A DNA stretch of 17,618 nt from an uncultured Deinococcales bacterium (GTDB lineage: Bacteria > Deinococcota > Deinococci > Deinococcales > JAAFIG01). The notes under the pieces are model-generated. The model was not told where the DNA came from, searched no databases, and saw nothing but the letters and a program-made list of their open reading frames with translations. Positions 3,506-13,577 of the stretch are shown piece after piece; the stretch's first letter is position 1, and each line of letters begins with the position of its first letter. The stretch lies in NCBI GenBank assembly GCA_964244895.1, contig CAXTKV010000091.1, positions 1,823 to 19,440 on the forward strand, read 5' to 3'. Made by a program: the position numbers and the translations under genes.

Positions 3506-4078
3506 ATGAAAAAAACCGTCGCCGCATTGATGTCCGCCGTCCTCGCCACCAGCATCGCGCTCGCCGCACCCGTCTTCAAGTTTAGCACCGACCCGAAAGC
3601 CAACCTGATGATGATGGGTCAGACCATCGAACTGAGCGCGTACCCGAAAGCCAAATTGCTTTCCAAGACCGTCACGAATTCCAGCGCGACCCTGGTCTAC
3701 GCGGGTTCTGACGCGGCGGGCGCGTACGCTTTCTACGACAAGGCGCTCAAGTCCGAAGGCTGGAAGGACGCGCCCGCCATGAAGTCCGGCGACGCGATGA
3801 AGTCGGGCGACACGATGAAGTCCGGCGATGCCACCAAGACGGACGACACCATGAAGACCGCCGACGCGACCAAAACCGACAGCACCATGAAATCCGCTGA
3901 CACCATGACCAAAACGGGCGATGCCATGAAGTCCGGCGACACCATGATGAAGGGCGTCGAAGGCATGAAGATGAAGGACGGCAGCTACCAGGGCCACTAC
4001 ACCCTGAAGAACTACACGCTCGGCCTGAGCACGTCCGTCAAGGACAGCAAGGTCTACGTCAACTTCGGCGTCAAGTAA
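3506..4078 (+). CDS. Secreted Met-rich repeat protein (paralog 1, MKSGD(A/T) hexad repeats)
   Basis: GGAGG RBS, signal peptide ending ALA-A, internal mostly 18-bp repeats about 3776-3952, homologous to the 4192..4779 protein. Confidence 0.88.
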   Translation: MKKTVAALMSAVLATSIALAAPVFKFSTDPKANLMMMGQTIELSAYPKAKLLSKTVTNSSATLVYAGSDAAGAYAFYDKALKSEGWKDAPAMKSGDAMKSGDTMKSGDATKTDDTMKTADATKTDSTMKSADTMTKTGDAMKSGDTMMKGVEGMKMKDGSYQGHYTLKNYTLGLSTSVKDSKVYVNFGVK

Positions 4079-4130
4079 ACCAGTCGAGAGAAATGGGCCG
4101 GACGCGTTCTCGTGACTCGAGAACACCGAT

Positions 4131-4156
4131 TGAACCTTTTGCCTTTGGTCTGCGTA
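4131..4156 (+). promoter_or_regulatory. Candidate ECF-sigma promoter TGAACC-N16-CGTA
   Basis: Duplicate of the motif at 3445-3470 with a largely different spacer sequence. Confidence 0.6.
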
Positions 4157-4191
4157 GATCGTCTCGAGTGAACAACTCAACAGGAGGCCGT

Positions 4192-4779
4192 ATGAACAAG
4201 ACCATGAAAATCGCCTTGATGTCCGCCGCCATAGCCACTGCTGGAATTGCGTTGGCCGCACCGGAATTCTTGTTCGTCAAGGATTTGAAATCCAACGGCA
4301 TGATGATGACGATGGGCAAGAAAGAAGTCATCGAACTGGCCGCGTACCCGGCGCTGAAGCTGGCGGCGCGCAACGTTTCGGCCACGCAAGCGACCTTTAT
4401 TTTCAACATCGGCGAGGCCAAAGACCCGCTGCACGGCGCGTTCGATTTCTACGGTAAGGCGCTCGAGAAAGAAGGCTGGAAGGCCGCTGGCGACGCGATG
4501 ATGAAAGATGGCGACACCATGGCCAAAACCGGTGACGCCATGACGAAACCGGGTGACACGATGACAAAGCCCGGCGATACGATGACCAAAACTGGCGACA
4601 CCATGACCAAAACCGGCGATACCATGACCAAAACTGGCGATACCATGACCAAAACTGGTGACGCGATGGGCGCGATGATGAAGCCCCTGAGCGAGAAGTA
4701 CGCGCTCAAGGATCACAGCATCACGCTGAGCGCCAAGCAGACCAAAACGACCGTCGAAGTCGATCTGGTTCTGAAGTAA
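4192..4779 (+). CDS. Secreted Met-rich repeat protein (paralog 2, GDTMTKT heptad repeats)
   Basis: AGGAGG RBS before ATG 4192 (ORF track start 4093 is too early); signal peptide; nine heptads. Confidence 0.88.
   Translation: MNKTMKIALMSAAIATAGIALAAPEFLFVKDLKSNGMMMTMGKKEVIELAAYPALKLAARNVSATQATFIFNIGEAKDPLHGAFDFYGKALEKEGWKAAGDAMMKDGDTMAKTGDAMTKPGDTMTKPGDTMTKTGDTMTKTGDTMTKTGDTMTKTGDAMGAMMKPLSEKYALKDHSITLSAKQTKTTVEVDLVLK
4489..4677 (+). repeat. Coding 21-bp tandem repeat x9 (GD[T/A]MxKx)
   Basis: GDAMMKD GDTMAKT GDAMTKP GDTMTKP GDTMTKT x4 GDAMGAM. Confidence 0.9.
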
Positions 4780-6439: not shown

Positions 6440-7690
6440 TTACCGCGCCCGGAGCGGCACGCGCACGGTTCCATCCGGCAGTTTCAGCACGGCTTCCCAG
6501 TGGCCGCTCATCCAGAAGGGGCAATACGTGCTGAACGACCCCGGCGCGCTGGACGCGATCTTGAACGGGATGGGCTGCATGGCGTGATCGAGCATGTTCA
6601 TCTGGCCGCTCAGGTCAAAATTGATCGGCGCGGGTTTGCCGGAGGCGTCCTCGACGCGCACCTCCAGATTCGTGCCGCCGTCGGTGGGTTTGAACACGCC
6701 GTTCACGATCCAGTTTGTGGTGCGTTCGGAAAAAGTGACCTCGCTGCGCAGGGTCACGCCAGGTTCGGGTGGGGGTTGCGTCACCAGGTAACCGCTGGCC
6801 AGCAGCACACCGACCAGCAGGGCGCTCTCGACCCGCATGACGCGACGGAATTTTTCCAGGTTGGGCGCGGTGCGTTGGCGGGTCAACAGCGGCAGCGTGC
6901 GGAACCGGTTGTCCCAGGCGATGCTCAACACCAGCGCCACGATGACCAGCTTGACCAACAACGATTGCCCGTAGCTCGAGCCGGTCAGGGCGCGCAGGGC
7001 GTAGACGTGAACGATGCTGGCGTACACGCCCGTGGCGGTCATGGCGATCACGGCCATCAAGCCGATGGCGGAGACGCGTTTGAGCGCCTCGATGTTCGGT
7101 TCCAGGTACTTCCAGCCCGAAGTCGGCGAGAACGCCAGAAACCCGACCGCGCCGACCCAGGCGACCATGGCGGACAGGTGGATCAGATCGGAAAAGAACG
7201 TGAAGCTGGCCCAGCCGTCCACCCCGGCGTGGCTGGTCAGGCTGAGCGTGGCCAGCACCGCCACGCTCAGCACGCCGTGCAGCACGCGATCCGTGATGCC
7301 TTCGCCGGGTTCGGCTCGAGACGCGATACCCAGTTTGCTCGAGCCGCCCGTATTTTTCGTGATCCCCAATCCCAGCCCGAAGACCGCCAGCGACAGAATG
7401 ACTCGCGCGATCGTGGCCGTACCGTGCCTGGAACCCGTGGTGTACGACCAGAAGGTCGGGAAGTCTAGCCCGGCGTAGACGCGGTTGGCGGTGAACGCGA
7501 CATCGGTGATGCTCGAGCCGATCACGACGACCGCACCCGCCAGAAGCGCCAGCTTCAACCAGCGCTCCAGCGCGTCCGGCACGGCGCTCGTCCAGACGTG
7601 GCGCGCGAATACGCCCGCGCCCAACAGCAGCACGCACCCGGCGAACAGACCGAAGCGGATCAGTGCAGGAATCACTTCAGGTGAGAGCAA
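6440..7690 (-). CDS. copD: CopD-family copper uptake membrane protein fused to a C-terminal YtkA-like domain
   Basis: SLTSHAG, DLIHLSAMVAWVGAV, YGQSLLVKL, RVESALL motifs; C-terminal MNMLDHAM...MSGHW; GGAGG 5 nt before TTG at 7690. Confidence 0.88.
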   Translation of the reverse strand: MLSPEVIPALIRFGLFAGCVLLLGAGVFARHVWTSAVPDALERWLKLALLAGAVVVIGSSITDVAFTANRVYAGLDFPTFWSYTTGSRHGTATIARVILSLAVFGLGLGITKNTGGSSKLGIASRAEPGEGITDRVLHGVLSVAVLATLSLTSHAGVDGWASFTFFSDLIHLSAMVAWVGAVGFLAFSPTSGWKYLEPNIEALKRVSAIGLMAVIAMTATGVYASIVHVYALRALTGSSYGQSLLVKLVIVALVLSIAWDNRFRTLPLLTRQRTAPNLEKFRRVMRVESALLVGVLLASGYLVTQPPPEPGVTLRSEVTFSERTTNWIVNGVFKPTDGGTNLEVRVEDASGKPAPINFDLSGQMNMLDHAMQPIPFKIASSAPGSFSTYCPFWMSGHWEAVLKLPDGTVRVPLRAR

Positions 7691-7717
7691 ATGCGCCTCC
7701 GGGTCTCGAGAATACCG

Positions 7718-7834
7718 TTCTTGCTCACAAGACAGCACCTAACGGGCTGTTCGCGCTTCTTGCTCACAAGACAGCACCTAACGGGCTGTTCGCGCTTCTT
7801 GCTCACGGGATAGCACCTAACGGGCTGTTCGCGC
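7718..7834. repeat. 39-bp tandem repeat x3 inserted in an ACCGTCC-family REP
   Basis: TTCTTGCTCACAAGACAGCACCTAACGGGCTGTTCGCGC at 7718, 7757 and a variant at 7796; flanked by GAGAATACCG and TCCCAGACGC. Confidence 0.92.
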
Positions 7835-7888
7835 TCCCAGACGCCCAGCAGCAAACCCTGTGCTGGACGGTGGTTCAGTGATATCAAC

Positions 7889-8368
7889 TTATTTCATACC
7901 GTCGAGGTGAAAGTGAATGAAGCCCTTTTCCACGTGCGTGTCCACGCTGGTGACTTGAAATGCCACGACGTACACGCCGGGCTGTCTCATGCCCGGTTTG
8001 AGCGCCAGCGTGACGGTCTTGGTCTGGGCGGGCGTGCCGGGCGCGTATCCGGCATCCACGCGATCCTTGCCATCCGTCTTGGCGCTGATGGCTTTGTTCG
8101 CGATTTGCTCGGCCACGTCATCCATCGATGAAGCGCTCATGGCCTTGCCGTTTTTCATCATCGATTCCATCGGGGCGTAGACGACCTTGAAGACGGAAAG
8201 TTTCGTCTCGAGCGGCTCGTCGAAGGTCAGGCTGACGGTTTTCGGCATGACCGCGACGTGCGCGTGGTCCTTGGGCGCGCTGGCCTTGACGTTCGAGTGC
8301 GCCAGCACGATGCCCGCGGTGCCTGCGGCGGCGAGTACAGCGGCGATCGCGAGCGGTTTGATGTTCAT
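7889..8368 (-). CDS. copC: CopC-family periplasmic copper-binding protein (Met/His-enriched)
   Basis: Signal peptide VLA-H, S.P.D, LTFDEP, PGVYVV...SVDTH; AAGGAG RBS. Confidence 0.9.
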   Translation of the reverse strand: MNIKPLAIAAVLAAAGTAGIVLAHSNVKASAPKDHAHVAVMPKTVSLTFDEPLETKLSVFKVVYAPMESMMKNGKAMSASSMDDVAEQIANKAISAKTDGKDRVDAGYAPGTPAQTKTVTLALKPGMRQPGVYVVAFQVTSVDTHVEKGFIHFHLDGMK

Positions 8369-8394
8369 GTATCTCCTTGCGCAGCCGTTTCACC

Positions 8395-8477
8395 CGAGGG
8401 ACGAGGAATCACGCGAACTCGAGGAACGAGAAATTCTGCGTATTCGAGGGACGAGGAATCCTGCGTATTCGAGGAAC
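8395..8477. repeat. 25-bp tandem repeat, about 3.3 copies
   Basis: CGAGG(G/A)ACGAG(G/A)AAT...GCG.A.T at 8395, 8420, 8445, partial at 8470. Confidence 0.8.
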
Positions 8478-8519
8478 ACCGTCCAGCACGAGGTTTGCGA
8501 TTTGCGTGCTGGACGGTGT
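8476..8519. repeat. ACCGTCC-family REP-like inverted repeat (uninterrupted reference copy)
   Basis: ACACCGTCCAGCACG / CGTGCTGGACGGTGT perfect 15-bp arms, 14-nt loop. Confidence 0.85.
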
Positions 8520-8524
8520 GGATC

Positions 8525-9007
8525 TTACTTCTTCTCGAGCGCGAAGCGCATGAAGCCGCTGGTCGTGTGCGTGTCCACGCTGGTGAGCTTCCACATTACG
8601 ACGTACACGCCGGGCCTGATCGTGCCAGGTTTGACGTTGAGCGTCACGGTTTTTGATTCCGCCATCGTGCTGGGCGCGTACCCGGCATCCACGCGATCCA
8701 CGGTGTCCGTCTTGAGCGCCAGCATCGTGTTGGCGAACTTCTCGACGATATTGTCCGCCGCTTCGTCGGGCAGTTCCTTGCCGTTTTTCATGATGGCTTT
8801 CTCGTCCATCCAGTAGATCTTGAAGCTCGAGACTTTCGTTTCGACGGCCTCGCCGAAGGTCAGTTGCACAGTTTTCGGCAGGGCGCTCAGCGTGCTGCCA
8901 TCCTTTGGGATGCTGGATTTGATGTTCGCGTGCGCCAACGCGATCCCGGCGGTGACGGCTGCGATGACGGTCAGGCCGGCCAGTGCGATTCGGTTTTTCA
9001 TGGTCAC
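8525..9007 (-). CDS. copC: CopC-family copper-binding protein
   Basis: ALA-HANIKSSIPKDG, LTFGEAV, PGVYVVMWKLTSVDTH; start may be ATG 9001 given the AGGAG spacing. Confidence 0.9.
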   Translation of the reverse strand: MTMKNRIALAGLTVIAAVTAGIALAHANIKSSIPKDGSTLSALPKTVQLTFGEAVETKVSSFKIYWMDEKAIMKNGKELPDEAADNIVEKFANTMLALKTDTVDRVDAGYAPSTMAESKTVTLNVKPGTIRPGVYVVMWKLTSVDTHTTSGFMRFALEKK

Positions 9008-9033
9008 TCCTGTTGTCTGAAGGGGAATGCAGT

Positions 9034-9480
9034 TCAGTTGGGTTTATAGCGGAACACCAGCCAATCATCGGTGGTGTGCGTGTCCACGCTCAGCGCGCGC
9101 CACATCACGACGTACCAGCCGGGTTGCAACCTCGGTTTGAGCTTGACCTGAAGGCGCGCGGCGCTCGGAACGTCCGTGGCCAGGCCGTCGTCAGCGCGGG
9201 CGGATTCGTCCCCTTTTTTGTCCAGTACTTCGTCCATCAGCGCCTCCGCGTCCTTGCGAGCGGCGTTCGCGTCTGTCGGGTTGGTTTGGAGCCTGTAGAC
9301 CTTGAAGACTGAAAACTTAACCTCGAGCGGTTCAGAAAATTCCAGTGTGACGGTTTTCGTCAAGCTCGCGATGGTCTGCCCGTCAGCGGGTACGGATTGC
9401 ATCAGGTTGGAATGCGCCAGCGCGACCCCGGCGATGGCGAAGCTCGCCAGGATCGCACCGAGCGCTCGGGGCTGGATCAC
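9034..9480 (-). CDS. copC: CopC-family copper-binding protein
   Basis: GTG 9480 overlaps the ycnI stop (GTGA); ALA-HSNLMQSVPADG, LEFSEP, PGWYVVMWRALSVDTH. Confidence 0.9.
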   Translation of the reverse strand: MIQPRALGAILASFAIAGVALAHSNLMQSVPADGQTIASLTKTVTLEFSEPLEVKFSVFKVYRLQTNPTDANAARKDAEALMDEVLDKKGDESARADDGLATDVPSAARLQVKLKPRLQPGWYVVMWRALSVDTHTTDDWLVFRYKPN

Positions 9481-9938
9481 TTGATCTCGACGCGCGACGC
9501 GGGCGTTTTGCCTTTCGGGTCTTCGTCCGCCCACTTGACGACCGTGCCATCGGCGTAAGTCTGGTCAACCTTGAACAGCAGCGTGCCGGGCTGGTCGGGG
9601 TTCTTGGCGCTGAACATGAAGCGCGCGAATTCCTCGGGCTGAAGGGTACCCTTCCAGGTGACGGTCGTGATCAATCCATTGGCGTCTTTTTCTGTGCTGT
9701 GCGTCCAGCCCGGCAACTGTCCAAAGGTGGACACGGTCAGTCCGGCGGGCACGTACAGTTTGACTTCGGTGGTGGCCATCGGTTTCTCAACCGGGACTTG
9801 CAGGCGGTAGGTCTCGTACGCGCCAGCCTTCGATTCCGAAAGGCCGACATCGGTTCTGACGGTCGCGTGCGCCAGGGCAATGGTGGCGACGGCGGCCACG
9901 AGCGCGGCGCTGGCCGCGATGATGGTGTTTTTGAACAT
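9477..9938 (-). CDS. ycnI: YcnI-family (DUF1775) copper-binding protein, no C-terminal TM anchor
   Basis: ALA-HATV, LQVPVEK, PGW, VTWKG, FKVDQTYADGTVVKW; GGAGG RBS. Confidence 0.9.
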   Translation of the reverse strand: MFKNTIIAASAALVAAVATIALAHATVRTDVGLSESKAGAYETYRLQVPVEKPMATTEVKLYVPAGLTVSTFGQLPGWTHSTEKDANGLITTVTWKGTLQPEEFARFMFSAKNPDQPGTLLFKVDQTYADGTVVKWADEDPKGKTPASRVEIK

Positions 9939-10060
9939 GGTGTCCTCCGGGTGATGACTCGAGCATCCGCGCCCGGACGGTCAGTTTGAAGGCCGTCCTG
10001 CGCGAGCGATTGTAGAGATGGTGCCGACTCGAGAGACGGCGCGAGAACCCAGGCTCGGGT

Positions 10061-10501
10061 TCAGGCGTCCGTCAAACCCGGCGGTGGCGCTCGAGATTGA
10101 ACGCTGCCGCGATGCCAGCATTGAACGTGTAGCGCGGCGCGATCCGTTAAGCGCGCGACCATCCCGGCGCCCGAGGCTCTGGTTGAAACCGGGTCGGGTG
10201 AGCCGCTGACCAGCGCGGGCGCACCGCACAACGGGCAATCGCGGTGATCGTGCCCGACGTGATCACCCTGAGCGTGCGAAACGCTCTTCGGTGCTCGAGT
10301 CTGAACCCGCGCGTGATCGCGGTGGTGATCCGAGGAATCAATCAGCTCGAGGGCTGGTAAGACCGCGACCTCGAGCGTGACCGGGTCGCGCAACGCGAAG
10401 GCGCTGCTGGCCAGGACGATCAGCCAGGCGGCCAACCACGATCCCGCACGCCCGATACTTTTTTGGGCGGCGCGAATCTGGCGTGGCTTGAGCGCGATCA
10501 T
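10061..10501 (-). CDS. DUF2946-like leader protein (CruR/CutF-type) with CxxC and C-terminal RAPP motif
   Basis: Hydrophobic signal-like segment, His-rich stretch, DCPLC, ends QSRAPPPGLTDA; directly upstream of ycnI-copC-copD; TAGACT 8 nt before ATG. Confidence 0.8.
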   Translation of the reverse strand: MIALKPRQIRAAQKSIGRAGSWLAAWLIVLASSAFALRDPVTLEVAVLPALELIDSSDHHRDHARVQTRAPKSVSHAQGDHVGHDHRDCPLCGAPALVSGSPDPVSTRASGAGMVARLTDRAALHVQCWHRGSVQSRAPPPGLTDA

Positions 10502-10560
10502 GCTTCACGAGTCTATCGGGGAAACGGTGTGGAACCGTTAGGATTTTCACCTGTTTACGA

Positions 10561-10619
10561 ACACCGTCCCGGACGCGGTTTTCTGGTGTCAAGAGAACAC
10601 CGTCCTGGACGGTGTTCTC
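10561..10619. repeat. ACCGTCC-family REP-like elements
   Basis: ACACCGTCCCGGACG then GAGAACACCGTCC-T-GGACGGTGTTCTC (10593-10619, 13-bp arms). Confidence 0.8.
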
Positions 10620-10656
10620 GAGAATCAGGATGATCGACTCGCTCGAGACGCCACCC

Positions 10657-12213
10657 TCAAAGCAACAAACTGCCGCGCGCCTGCATCGGTTGCGAGAAAA
10701 TCAGGAGCGTCAAAGCCACGAACACCACGATCAGAATCAACTGCGGCGCGATGGCCACCACGTTCACCTTCAATCTCACGGTGCGCCGGTACGCGGCCCA
10801 GACGCCCGCCGCCAGACCCAGGTAAGACAGCGCGACCTGATAGATGAACGCCTGATCGACCCTGGAAACCGTCGGTGGGGGCGGTTGCGGCAGGTTGATG
10901 CCCAGCCTGAAGAGCGCGTTGACCGCGTTCGGCCAGAGCGTCGCGTAACCCGTCAAGAAGTGGTACAGGTAATGCCCTGCCCAGGCCGCCAGCGCGAGCG
11001 GCAGCATCACCGCCGCCCAGTCGCGCAACCTCGAGAAGCCCTGCCCGCCGAGCGAGCCGGACAGCCTGGCCGCCAAGAGCGACAAACCCACGCCGCCGCC
11101 GATGCCGACGGTCTGAATGATCAACAGCAGGATCGTCTGGTCGCGCGTGCCCAGCAGCCTGGAAAGCCATTCGGCCAGATTGAAAAAAGCGGGGATCATG
11201 GCGAACGCGTTGACCAGTCCCGCCCAGGCCAGCACGGTCACGAAGAGCGACCAGTCGGATTTCGGGCGCAGGGCTTCGGCCTCGCGGGTCGGGATGCGGA
11301 ACTCGAGCGCCACGTTGTCGTAAGGGCAGGCCCGAACGCAGTTCAGGCACAGCGTGCAATCGGTGTTGGACTGGATGGCGGGCACGAACAAGTCCGTCTC
11401 GCAGCCGGGGAAGGTGCCGTAACTGCGGGATTTGATGCTTTCCAGGCTCGAGTCGATGGTCGAGACGGCGCTCGGGGCTTGCAAGCTCGAGGCGCCCGCC
11501 GAAACCATCGGCAATTCCAGCATGACGTGATCGGCGCGGTGACCGAACAGTGGGGCTCTGGACGTGGGCGTTTCCACGCGACCGTTCAGGCAGTATTTGC
11601 CCTCGCAGGAGTTGCAAACGTTCTGGTCAACAGCCGTGATCTGCGTCGGGCTCGCGCCGGACAGCGCGAAATTGAAATTCCCCAATGGACAGACGTACTT
11701 GCAAAACGTCCCGACCGGAAAGATGGCATCCGTCAGCAAGGCCACCGTGAAGTACCCGATGATCAACCAGGCCGTCAGCCACGGGCTGGCCCACAGGCTG
11801 AAATGCTCGTAGCTGAACAAGAACACCAGCGTCAGTCCCAGCACCAGGTACTTGTTGCGCAGGACTTTCGGCCATTCGGGTTTGAAATTCAGTTTCTCGA
11901 GCGCACCCTTGATGAGCTTCGATGGCCCTCTGGTCAGCATCAACGGGCAGGCCGCGCAGAACAAATTCCCGAAGACCGCGATGGCGATGCCGACCAGCCC
12001 ACGGTAATGCACCCAGACGCTGACCGTGGCCACGTTCACCGGCGCGACCTGACGGCCCGTCATGCCGTCGTAGACGGCCAACATGGCGATCAACAACAGC
12101 GGCACTTGCAGCGCGAACCGGGCGTAGCGCCAGCGCAGGAACGCGCCCAGGAGCGGCGCGCGCAGCACGTCGAGGCGGCGGCGCGGCGCGTGCGTGGGCA
12201 GGGCGACGCTCAC
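10657..12213 (-). CDS. Membrane polyferredoxin / 4Fe-4S binding protein (NapH/NosR/CcoG-like superfamily)
   Basis: FCAACP and FCKYVCP (CxxxCP-type), CNSCEGKYC, CTLCLNCVRACP, many TM helices; start GTG 12213 (GAGGG RBS) or ATG 12246. Confidence 0.88.
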   Translation of the reverse strand: MSVALPTHAPRRRLDVLRAPLLGAFLRWRYARFALQVPLLLIAMLAVYDGMTGRQVAPVNVATVSVWVHYRGLVGIAIAVFGNLFCAACPLMLTRGPSKLIKGALEKLNFKPEWPKVLRNKYLVLGLTLVFLFSYEHFSLWASPWLTAWLIIGYFTVALLTDAIFPVGTFCKYVCPLGNFNFALSGASPTQITAVDQNVCNSCEGKYCLNGRVETPTSRAPLFGHRADHVMLELPMVSAGASSLQAPSAVSTIDSSLESIKSRSYGTFPGCETDLFVPAIQSNTDCTLCLNCVRACPYDNVALEFRIPTREAEALRPKSDWSLFVTVLAWAGLVNAFAMIPAFFNLAEWLSRLLGTRDQTILLLIIQTVGIGGGVGLSLLAARLSGSLGGQGFSRLRDWAAVMLPLALAAWAGHYLYHFLTGYATLWPNAVNALFRLGINLPQPPPPTVSRVDQAFIYQVALSYLGLAAGVWAAYRRTVRLKVNVVAIAPQLILIVVFVALTLLIFSQPMQARGSLLL

Positions 12214-12266
12214 GCTCGAGCCCTCGGAAGACCGTTCAGGACACATTTCGCTCGAGATAGAAAAAC

Positions 12267-12281
12267 ACCGTCCTGGACGGT
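12267..12281. repeat. ACCGTCC-family short palindrome
   Basis: ACCGTCC-T-GGACGGT. Confidence 0.65.
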
Positions 12282-12316
12282 CTTCAAAGGACTCCGACCT
12301 CGAGCGAACCCGTCAA

Positions 12317-12688
12317 TCACGGTTGCACCCCGAAGCGGTACTCACCCGACATCTTCTCGCCGTTTTTCTCGGCGGTCACGATCAGCACGTAATCTCCAGC
12401 CATCTGAAATTCCAGGTCTTGCGCCTGGTAGACGCCCTGTCCGATCTCCTGAGCGATGCGAAGCGTGGGCACCATCCCGGCGTGCGTCATGGTGTTCTGA
12501 ACGCTAACTTTCGCACCTGTCAACGGGTTGCCGGCCTGCACGACCTTGAAAATAAACGAGGTCGGGCCAGCCCCGGACGGCGCGATCTTGGTTTCGGGCA
12601 GGATCACCAGCTTGTTCGGGTCGGGCGGCGCGCACGCGACCACGACGGCGGCGAGCAAGGAAAGGAACAGGATTCTGAGCTTTGGCAT
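12317..12688 (-). CDS. YtkA/FixH-like lipoprotein
   Basis: Lipobox VVAC; PLTGAKV, MTHAGM, GVY...FQMAGDYVLIV. Confidence 0.85.
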   Translation of the reverse strand: MPKLRILFLSLLAAVVVACAPPDPNKLVILPETKIAPSGAGPTSFIFKVVQAGNPLTGAKVSVQNTMTHAGMVPTLRIAQEIGQGVYQAQDLEFQMAGDYVLIVTAEKNGEKMSGEYRFGVQP

Positions 12689-12758
12689 GGGTGTCTTTCC
12701 GGTGGGCAGCTTTTGGATTGAGGTACGCTCGCGCGCACCCGAGCGTTCAGATCGGCGT

Positions 12759-13268
12759 TCAGGCCGTGGCGGAGGGTTCGGTCGAATCGGGTTTGGGTCG
12801 CCGGATCAGCACCCAGGCCAGCACCGCCAGCGCCACCAGGATCGGGAAGGCCAGCAGCGCCAGCAGGAGCGGTGTGGTCGGGGCTCCGGCGCTGGAAGGA
12901 GGCAGGATCAGCCGGACGGAGGATTTGAGCGGCCAGTTGACGGTCGCCTTGGCCTCGAGCGATTCGCGCGGGAAGGTCGAATCGCGCACGATCAGCGTCC
13001 ACTCGCCCGCCGGGGCTTTCGGTAGGGGCGCTGTGTACTCGCCGTCCGCCGTTTCCATCAACGGCCCCTGGAAGGCGTCACCCTTCTGGTTCATCAGCAC
13101 GTAGGCCATGCGCGCGCCGTTGATCGGGTAGCCTTCGACGCTGCCTGCCAGCAAGGCCAGCCTGCCGGATTGCTCGAGCACGTCGAGGTTCACAGAGGTC
13201 AGGTGCGCGCTCGCGGTGGATGCCGCAGCGAAGGCGAGTACGGTCAGGAGTGCGCGGATACTACGCAT
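12759..13268 (-). CDS. Secreted Ig/YtkA-like protein with N-terminal His and C-terminal TM anchor
   Basis: ATG 13268; signal peptide ASA-HLTS; DGEY...AGEWTLIV; C-terminal hydrophobic helix followed by RRPK. Confidence 0.78.
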   Translation of the reverse strand: MRSIRALLTVLAFAAASTASAHLTSVNLDVLEQSGRLALLAGSVEGYPINGARMAYVLMNQKGDAFQGPLMETADGEYTAPLPKAPAGEWTLIVRDSTFPRESLEAKATVNWPLKSSVRLILPPSSAGAPTTPLLLALLAFPILVALAVLAWVLIRRPKPDSTEPSATA

Positions 13269-13452
13269 CCTCTGGAGGCTACACCAGCTGCATGAACCGA
13301 AACTGGAAAATACTTCGGTTTTCGATGAGTCAATGCGGTTCATCTGCCCTCTGAGGACGAGCATTCTTGAAGCTCAAAACCCGTGAGCCCTCGAGACCAA
13401 CCACGAAGGTGAGTTCGCGCTCGAGATATCCCGATGGCACCCGAGAACACCG

Positions 13453-13530
13453 TTCTTGCTCATGGGACAGCACCTCACGGGCTATTCGCGCTTCTTGCTC
13501 ATGGGACAGCACCTCACGGGCTATTCGCGC
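13453..13530. repeat. 39-bp tandem repeat x2 inserted in an ACCGTCC-family REP
   Basis: TTCTTGCTCATGGGACAGCACCTCACGGGCTATTCGCGC at 13453 and 13492, between ACACCG and TCCAGCACGC. Confidence 0.92.
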
Positions 13531-13577
13531 TCCAGCACGCATGCTTGAAAACGCGTGCTGGACGGTGTCGCCCGAAT

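What the first reader, a model, noticed from the sequence alone, without database searches (positions are those of the whole stretch)
7708..13568. A 39-bp unit inserted in tandem at the same base of a REP palindrome at two separate loci
Seen: at 13453-13530 two identical 39-bp units split a REP arm as ACACCG^TCCAGCACGC. Deleting them restores a perfect 16-bp arm pairing with GCGTGCTGGACGGTGT (13553-13568), matching the intact REP at 8476-8519. At 7718-7834 three units split ATACCG^TCCCAGACGC at the same position and in the same orientation, with the partner arm at about 7860-7872. Units differ at 5 of 39 positions between loci but are near-identical within a locus. They have no terminal inverted repeat, at most a 1-nt (T) target duplication, and an internal CT(C/A)ACGGG-like direct repeat. 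Inference: this is a tiny site-specific element that parasitises the REP family and is added in variable copy number. Possible routes are RNA-templated addition by a reverse transcriptase, or an IS110/HUH-type recombinase acting in trans. I do not recognise it as a described element.
Basis: partly seen in the sequence, partly recalled or inferred. Interest (0 to 1): 0.85.

Follow-up and report, generated by a model that had tools for sequence, protein, structure and literature searches.

The report
Tiny nesting DNA hairpin jumpers
The 39-base unit is one copy of a family of tiny gene-less DNA hairpins that sit cleanly inserted in repeats, transposon genes and each other across many Deinococcus-group bacteria; they likely move as a folded single DNA strand by an enzyme not yet found, and in relatives an RNA-guided jumping gene sits in their loop with a guide that matches it.

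Summary
Confirmed, and larger than flagged. The unit belongs to a family of 36-41-nt elements: 113 copies at 76 loci in this genome, 62 of them in a REP context. The family is in 18 of 18 other genomes of this uncultured Deinococcales family and patchily elsewhere in the phylum. A related strain lacks the 117-nt insert at 7718-7834 to the base.

Units usually insert without duplicating the target, go into REPs, transposase genes and each other (nested three deep), and keep a hairpin through compensatory changes. GNNA/GNA loops on the minus strand point to folded single-stranded DNA.

In relatives, an IS110 bridge-RNA element sits in the hairpin loop, with a guide matching the loop variant (8 of 9 complete copies). 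Its donor guide fits only itself and near-complete carriers lack it, so it is a second-tier parasite, not the mover. Reverse transcriptase and one RAYT class do not track with the element. Best guess: single-strand cut-and-join by an unidentified HUH-type or host enzyme.

Closest known: cyanobacterial small dispersed repeats (recalled, paper not held). This scan noted the same or a like family before on other DNA (e1-8735074; IS110 link e1-9986373, e1-8433273).

The parts
7712..7717 (+). Foot of the 5' arm of a (degenerate) REP, left of insertion site 1
   Evidence: empty site in a related strain
7718..7756 (-). Type A unit 1 (39 nt). The hairpin is inferred to fold on the minus strand (GTTA loop). 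The IS110 target site lies between 7739 and 7740
   Evidence: its loop variant matches the guide of IS110 copy L088
7757..7795 (-). Type A unit 2, identical to unit 1
7796..7834 (-). Type A unit 3, 3 differences from units 1-2
7835..7874 (.). Remainder of the REP 5' arm, spacer and degenerate partner arm
8476..8519 (.). Intact (empty) REP of the same family; about 2170 empty arms in the genome
13447..13452 (+). Foot of the REP 5' arm, left of insertion site 2
13453..13491 (-). Type A unit (39 nt), GTGA loop on the minus strand; loop site for nested insertion between 13474 and 13475
13492..13530 (-). Second, identical type A unit
13531..13568 (.). Remainder of the REP 5' arm, spacer and perfect partner arm (13553-13568)

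Best explanation
The 39-mer is a member of a family of 36-41-nt non-coding hairpin elements that are inserted precisely into REPs, transposase genes and one another, and that likely move as a folded single DNA strand cut and rejoined by an enzyme acting in trans (most likely HUH/Y1-type or a host single-strand enzyme; not identified).

Shown: dispersal, exact empty and filled sites, nesting, mixed tandem arrays, a covarying stem and constant ends.

Inferred: the minus strand folds into a rod capped by a GNNA/GNA loop with a bulged T; it is excised as a single-stranded circle and joined into a target that loosely resembles its own end-to-end junction (plus strand C-S-Y^T-Y-C). Insertion regenerates a target at both junctions and adds one in the loop, which would build tandem and nested arrays.

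Second tier: shown by sequence, an IS110 sits in the loop with a matching target guide and units sit in its donor guide and gene. That it homes there by RNA pairing is inferred from the IS621 model.
For: Mobility: exact empty ortholog of site 1; empty homologue of an IS3 site; 4 empty versus 10 filled copies of one site in the IS110 non-coding end; removing inner units rebuilds intact host units, up to three levels.

Successive insertion: tandem arrays of mixed subtypes.

Structure: Watson-Crick pairing at stem pairs 2-5 is 0.76 against 0.39 (maximum 0.44) in 1000 shuffles over 219 distinct units.

Strand and DNA: with loop bases unconstrained, 183 of 192 distinct units (50 of 55 in the own genome) read GNNA or GNA on the minus strand. 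All 16 GNNA variants occur, and GNYA outnumbers GNRA 107 to 64. Such loops are far more stable in DNA than RNA (PMC13037366, passages). Type A keeps a TC/TC double mismatch in 68 of 70, which reads GA/GA on the minus strand. A-C pairs outnumber G-T pairs 24 to 9 on the plus strand.

Chemistry: single-strand cleavage next to a hairpin, strand transfer and single-stranded circles are HUH traits (PMC8266576, PMC3333891, passages).
Against: No enzyme was found. No gene family recurs next to units in 40 neighbourhoods from 6 carrier genomes. IS200/IS605 transposase ends show no unit-like core in 38 loci, and the family is not found in the own genome or G199. The one RAYT class tested does not track with carriers.

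Strand conflict: known RAYT cleavage is at C|T, which here lies on the plus strand, opposite to the strand the loop evidence favours. Predicted folding energies are equal on average for the two strands, and the window's locus-2 unit alone folds no better than shuffles.

No guide-like pairing between unit and target was detected. No circle or intermediate was observed. Related units are not independent, so the counts overstate support.
Confidence: 0.55

Rival explanations
1. The IS110 recombinase moves the unit in trans, as ISPpu9 moves MITEPpu9, or the unit is a footprint left when a composite (unit halves plus IS110) loses its IS110.
For: All 20 distinct IS110 left ends follow CACC and all 21 right ends are followed by a unit-like right half. 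The unit's own junction contains a CT like the IS110 core. MITEPpu9 circles and tandem copies are a precedent (PMC12288879, sections 15 and 18).
Against: The donor guide matches the IS110's own junction, not the unit's. The IS110 also sits in a non-unit site that matches its guide (L041). Near-complete carriers G120 and G164 hold only about 30%-identical IS110s with other flanks; G210, G097 and G302 hold about 50% homologues with other flanks; none was found in G006 or the own genome. Targets are too varied for one guide. A 39-bp double-stranded circle is implausible (general knowledge).
Confidence: 0.12
2. The unit moves through an RNA copy that a reverse transcriptase writes into DNA, with tandem copies from template jumping.
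For: Identical tandem copies: 9 of 18 within-locus pairs are identical, against 21 of 2328 between loci. Covariation fits any single-stranded nucleic acid. Some left junctions carry one extra base.
Against: RT domain in 0 of 1 own genome, 5 of 18 family genomes and 1 of 5 other carriers. Loops are GNNA/GNA rather than GNRA. No longer host RNA or Rfam match was found. MAG incompleteness weakens the absence.
Confidence: 0.1
3. A housekeeping single-strand enzyme (for example a type IA topoisomerase or a repair ligase acting on folded DNA) does the cutting and joining; no autonomous partner exists.
For: Patchy presence across four families with no shared neighbouring gene. G199 carries nested units with no Y1, IS110 or RT hit. 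The target consensus is loose.
Against: Constant ends and loop-proximal bases suggest a dedicated reader. Subtypes differ sharply in target choice in one genome. No host enzyme was tested.
Confidence: 0.2
4. The unit is an immobile spacer carried along as part of an amplifying REP, with tandem copies from slippage.
For: 62 of 76 loci are in a REP context, and slippage may explain some identical pairs.
Against: Exact empty ortholog, insertions inside coding genes, nesting, and different REP classes in other genera.
Confidence: 0.03

Closest known systems
Small dispersed repeats (SDRs) of Nostocaceae (Elhai et al. 2008, Genome Res 18:1484; paper not held; seen only as a reference and one sentence in PMC2884548; details recalled; lead from scan note e1-8735074)
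   Same: Very small gene-less repeats thought to be mobile. Recalled: hairpins with compensatory changes, found inside other repeats and nested in themselves, mechanism unknown.
   Different: 36-41 nt rather than about 20-27 nt, a different phylum and no sequence comparison made. Here there is an exact empty ortholog, strand-specific DNA-hairpin signatures and an IS110 aimed at the loop.
IS621-type IS110 bridge recombinases (PMC11208160, abstract and passages)
   Same: The partner element has both Pfam domains, a long left non-coding end with two internal loops, a CT core and a target guide that matches its flanks.
   Different: Its target is the loop of a mobile 37-40-nt hairpin rather than a REP, and its donor guide is interrupted by a unit in 10 of 14 distinct copies. 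It is not found in the window's genome.
MITEPpu9/ssr9 with ISPpu9 (PMC12288879, abstract and sections 15 and 18 part 1)
   Same: Non-autonomous element associated with an IS110 and REPs, with some tandem copies.
   Different: MITEPpu9 shares the ends of its IS and carries a small-RNA gene. The unit shares no ends with the IS110 and is its target.
REP/REPIN with RAYT, and IS200/IS605 single-strand transposition (PMC8266576, PMC3333891, PMC6006769, PMC3116915; passages)
   Same: Imperfect hairpin with a bulge, strand asymmetry, no target duplication, CT at the junctions, and a proposed single-stranded circle.
   Different: No GTAG foot, a single hairpin as the mobile unit, no flanked transposase gene, and a distribution that does not follow the RAYT class tested.

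Membership tests
SDR-like very small mobile repeats | Under 100 nt, dispersed, no coding capacity | tested here: met
   36-42 nt, 113 copies at 76 loci
SDR-like very small mobile repeats | Hairpin kept by compensatory changes (feature recalled) | tested here: met
   0.76 versus 0.39 in shuffles
SDR-like very small mobile repeats | Nested in itself and inserted in other repeats (feature recalled) | tested here: met
SDR-like very small mobile repeats | Sequence relationship to SDR1-8 | not testable with these tools
   Paper and sequences not held
IS110-derived MITE | Ends shared with an autonomous IS110 and matching its donor guide | tested here: not met
   IS ends and donor guide differ from the unit's ends
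Classical TIR MITE | Terminal inverted repeats and target duplication | tested here: not met
   Inverted repeat is sub-terminal and free to vary; 0 (sometimes 1) extra base at the junction
RAYT-associated REP/REPIN | GTAG/GGAG tetranucleotide at the hairpin foot | tested here: not met
   Neither strand has it
RAYT-associated REP/REPIN | Copies flank a RAYT gene and co-occur with it | tested here: not met
   RAYT-like genes carry GTAG-type REPs. The class was found in 1 of 112 f3 genomes (a non-carrier) and in 20 of 62 f5 genomes, which lack the unit. Only one class was tested.
IS200/IS605 non-autonomous derivative | Hairpin shared with the ends of a TnpA-bearing element | tested here: not met
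   38 TnpA loci: one inserted unit and one chance match
HUH-type single-strand transposition (works like) | Strand-specific hairpin, no target duplication | tested here: met
HUH-type single-strand transposition (works like) | Single-stranded circle and 5'-phosphotyrosine intermediate; lagging-strand bias | not testable with these tools
   Contig-skew comparison uninformative
IS110 bridge recombinase (partner element) | DEDD and Transposase_20 domains | tested here: met
   PF01548 and PF02371 above cut-off
IS110 bridge recombinase (partner element) | Target loop whose guides match the flanks around a CT core | tested here: met
   Right guide matches in 8 of 8 complete copies across five variants; a ninth copy differs at two bases
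IS110 bridge recombinase (partner element) | Bridge RNA expressed and recombination shown | not testable with these tools
   No RNA run or bench assay available

The most novel reading that the evidence does not exclude
A self-targeting 36-41-nt single-stranded DNA parasite with no autonomous partner, moved by a host enzyme, and locked in a three-tier arms race. It colonises REPs and itself. An IS110 re-programmes its RNA guide to follow the unit's freely varying loop. The unit in turn knocks out the IS110 by landing in its donor guide and gene. This would be a new, minimal transposition route and a natural record of guide-target chasing.
Probability: 0.3. Interest if true: 0.88.

Novelty: new variant of a known kind. 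Interest (0 to 1): 0.7.

Why it matters
How repeats under 50 nt move is an open question (recalled for the cyanobacterial SDRs). This family makes it testable: fixed ends, hundreds of natural variants that define the structure, an inferred active strand, known target sites, and near-complete carrier genomes in the family inferred to hold cultured Deinococcus. An enzyme that joins a 39-nt hairpin into DNA without a scar would be of interest as a tool. The IS110 gives natural guide-target pairs and shows layered parasitism among mobile elements. In practice, these inserts break or extend genes and break assemblies.

Tried and rejected
Own-genome searches for PF01797, PF02371 and PF00078 were blank. 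The first missed a RAYT-like gene that a protein query later found, so such blanks are weak.

PF04986 rang in no control, so says nothing.

Searches for a long element with the unit's ends: none in the own genome. Two IS110s of other subfamilies have unrelated ends.

Pattern scans of metagenome and viral contigs were mostly chance. 17 matches in 164 loci passed an end filter, and I judged two to be real units. The best viral match lies inside a phage gene.

A neighbourhood search for a shared mobiliser in 40 regions of 6 genomes found only ordinary genes and transposases that the units had entered.

A position-by-position test for unit-target pairing gave a best z of 3.5 against a permutation 95th percentile of 3.4, on non-independent pairs; not accepted.

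Folding energy did not separate the strands on average, though the minus strand was better in 132 and the plus strand in 76 of 213. Orientation against contig skew was uninformative.

Rfam gave no match. No RNA holder was listed. Locus 2 was not bridged in the three runs.

The parsers are imperfect: one search had false positives (4 in its control) and boundary slips, so counts come from one search, which also misplaces some ends.

Literature: eight searches found no description of this family. Subscription journals are not covered. No supplements were read; those of PMC11208160 may list this IS110 and its targets.
Full report
1. Observation. The sequence shows two identical 39-mers at 13453-13530 and three near-identical ones at 7718-7834, each array placed after the ACCG foot of a REP arm in the same orientation. 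Removing the first array gives a perfect 16-nt arm; the other REP is degenerate, and the outer flanks of the two loci are unrelated. A contig of a related strain in run X2 (56 differences over 718 nt on the left) maps to 7000-7717 and continues at 7835 with adjacent record positions, so the 117-nt insert is absent to the base. This does not tell insertion from precise loss. Locus 2 was not bridged.

2. It is a family. A mismatch scan found 90 matches within 13 mismatches in the 5.1-Mb, 91%-complete genome. A parser with no stem requirement found 113 units against 1 in the reversed genome. They form 76 loci, 62 in a REP context, among about 2170 empty REP arms. Sister subtypes of 37-40 nt share the ends (TCTTG near the left, CGC at the right) and the centre GCACC-loop-GGGC. 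They insert into the loop of other units, up to three deep, and removing inner units rebuilds intact hosts. Tandem arrays may be identical (9 of 18 within-locus pairs) or mixed, so at least some grow by repeated insertion. Units also interrupt IS5-, ISL3- and IS3-type transposase genes and an XdhC gene; Pfam confirmed 5 of the 7 frames submitted. An empty homologue of one IS3 site is in L088.

3. Distribution. The pattern is in 18 of 18 other genomes of the window's family, whose relatives are titled Deinococcales MAGs. In a 301-genome phylum sample it matched 9 of 112, 5 of 103, 2 of 14 and 0 of 62 genomes of the four other families; some of these are single hits that may be chance. The listed matches in the 112-genome family are real units with other stems. 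In other genera the hosts are other repeat classes. Across 129 distinct outer sites the target consensus is weak, roughly C-S-Y^T-Y-C, and resembles the unit's own junction. At a C^A site nothing is duplicated; some subtypes show one extra base at the left junction.

4. Anatomy. Stem arms vary widely yet stay complementary: 0.76 Watson-Crick at pairs 2-5 against 0.39 in shuffles (kin are not independent). With loop bases left free, 183 of 192 distinct units read GNNA or GNA on the minus strand, all 16 four-base variants occur, and GNYA exceeds GNRA. Many relatives' loci had been fetched with a pattern that fixed those bases, but the unbiased own genome gives 50 of 55. PMC13037366 (passages) reports such mini-hairpins as very stable in DNA and much less so in RNA; its examples have slightly different stems. 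Type A keeps a double mismatch that reads GA/GA on the minus strand (68 of 70; that tandem GA pairs are stable is recalled). A-C pairs exceed G-T pairs on the plus strand, 24 to 9. Against this, mean predicted energies are equal for both strands, and the locus-2 unit folds weakly. I infer a folded minus-strand DNA.

5. The IS110. A PF01548 search found IS110 genes in 9 of 18 relatives. The dominant element (L088:6-1169, 320 aa, both Pfam domains) starts after CACC in 20 of 20 distinct left ends and is followed by a unit-like right half in 21 of 21 right ends. Its 185-nt left end has two internal loops laid out as described for IS621 (PMC11208160, passages; folds). The right target guide is the reverse complement of the actual flank in 8 of 8 complete copies over five loop variants. 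By my arithmetic, random assignment would give this once in 3360, ignoring kinship. A ninth complete copy, in another family, differs at two bases. One variant matches the loop of the window's locus-1 units, and one right end lies in a type A unit (L119). The donor loop fits the IS110's own junction. The element also sits in a non-unit site that fits its guide (L041), so its unit of movement excludes the hairpin halves. It was not found in the own genome or G006. Carriers G120 and G164 hold only distant IS110s, and G210, G097 and G302 hold homologues with other flanks. It therefore exploits the units and is not needed for them. Units in turn interrupt its donor guide in 10 of 14 distinct copies and its gene in 4 of 8 examined.

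6. The missing mover. RT: 5 of 18 relatives, 1 of 5 other carriers, none in the own genome. RAYT-like genes: present in the own genome and 8 of 9 sampled relatives, but tied to GTAG-type REPs, not found in the carriers of the 112-genome family or in genus g14, and common in a family without units (G265, unpublished, is one row of these tallies). IS200/IS605 TnpA: in 4 of 5 other carriers, but its ends are unlike the unit. No shared neighbour gene was found. The features still fit HUH chemistry best: a strand-specific bulged hairpin, no duplication, cutting outside the stem, and a size that only a single strand could circularise (PMC8266576 and PMC3333891, passages). One tension remains: RAYTs cut C|T, which is on the plus strand here. 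I give 0.55 to single-strand transfer by an unidentified HUH-type or similar enzyme, 0.2 to a purely housekeeping enzyme, 0.12 to IS110, 0.1 to RT and 0.03 to immobility. That the element is mobile at all I put at about 0.95.

7. Comparison and novelty. It works like the cyanobacterial SDRs (recalled; paper not held; one sentence and the reference seen in PMC2884548). It fails membership of IS110-derived MITEs (MITEPpu9 shares its IS ends; PMC12288879, abstract and two sections), TIR MITEs, RAYT REPs and IS200/IS605 derivatives. Eight library searches found no description of this family. This scan noted it before. Note e1-8735074 covers another piece of this genome; it gave me the SDR lead, mentioned strand-specific covariation before I tested it, and reached the same single-strand reading. 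Notes e1-9986373 and e1-8433273 report an IS110 in such a hairpin in other genomes. I had reached the family and the IS110 link before reading them; they are unchecked notes, not support.

8. Verdict. Real, mobile and unexplained in mechanism: a new variant of a known but little-studied kind, with an RNA-guided element layered on top. Interest 0.7.

Noticed in passing
L083-L087, L090, L093, L432 (left non-coding end of the IS110): 10 of 14 distinct IS110 copies carry a unit at the same base of the predicted left donor guide. Seven of these are one subtype whose loop-proximal bases differ from the IS110 target, and some interrupted copies have intact genes at different sites. Unexplained: either still mobile, helped in trans, or a recurrent hot spot.
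   Followed up: partly
own genome, all loci: Subtypes choose different targets: type A follows the REP foot 39 times and a loop once; other types follow the REP foot 0 times and a loop 19 times. No guide pairing was found.
   Followed up: partly
G000 C5, C130, C276, C306: The units inside transposase genes of the own genome appear all in the sense orientation (my reading); relatives show both orientations.
   Followed up: no
G000:C131 (L520:56-1234, minus strand): A unit sits in frame and antisense in an XdhC-family gene, adding 13 codons without a stop.
   Followed up: partly
window 6440-13364: Likely copper-handling cluster: CopD and CopC-domain genes and a YtkA-like protein. The listed CopD start falls inside the insert; the real start is probably near 7675 (inference).
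   Followed up: partly
window 8395-8477: A 25-nt tandem repeat (3.3 copies) next to the intact REP; the related strain in run X2 has one copy fewer.
   Followed up: no
window 3506-4078 and 4093-4779: Two paralogous exported-looking proteins with Met/Lys/Thr/Gly/Asp-rich tandem repeats.
   Followed up: no
G000:C12:40646-41185: A RAYT-like gene missed by PF01797, with a GTAG-type REP before it and another inside it.
   Followed up: partly
L291 (viral contig): Phage region with a reverse transcriptase and a small neighbouring gene beside a tail-like gene, resembling a diversity-generating retroelement (label recalled).
   Followed up: no
L100, L101, L112 (deltaproteobacterial MAG): A related IS110 sits repeatedly in its own host's palindromic repeat.
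   Followed up: no
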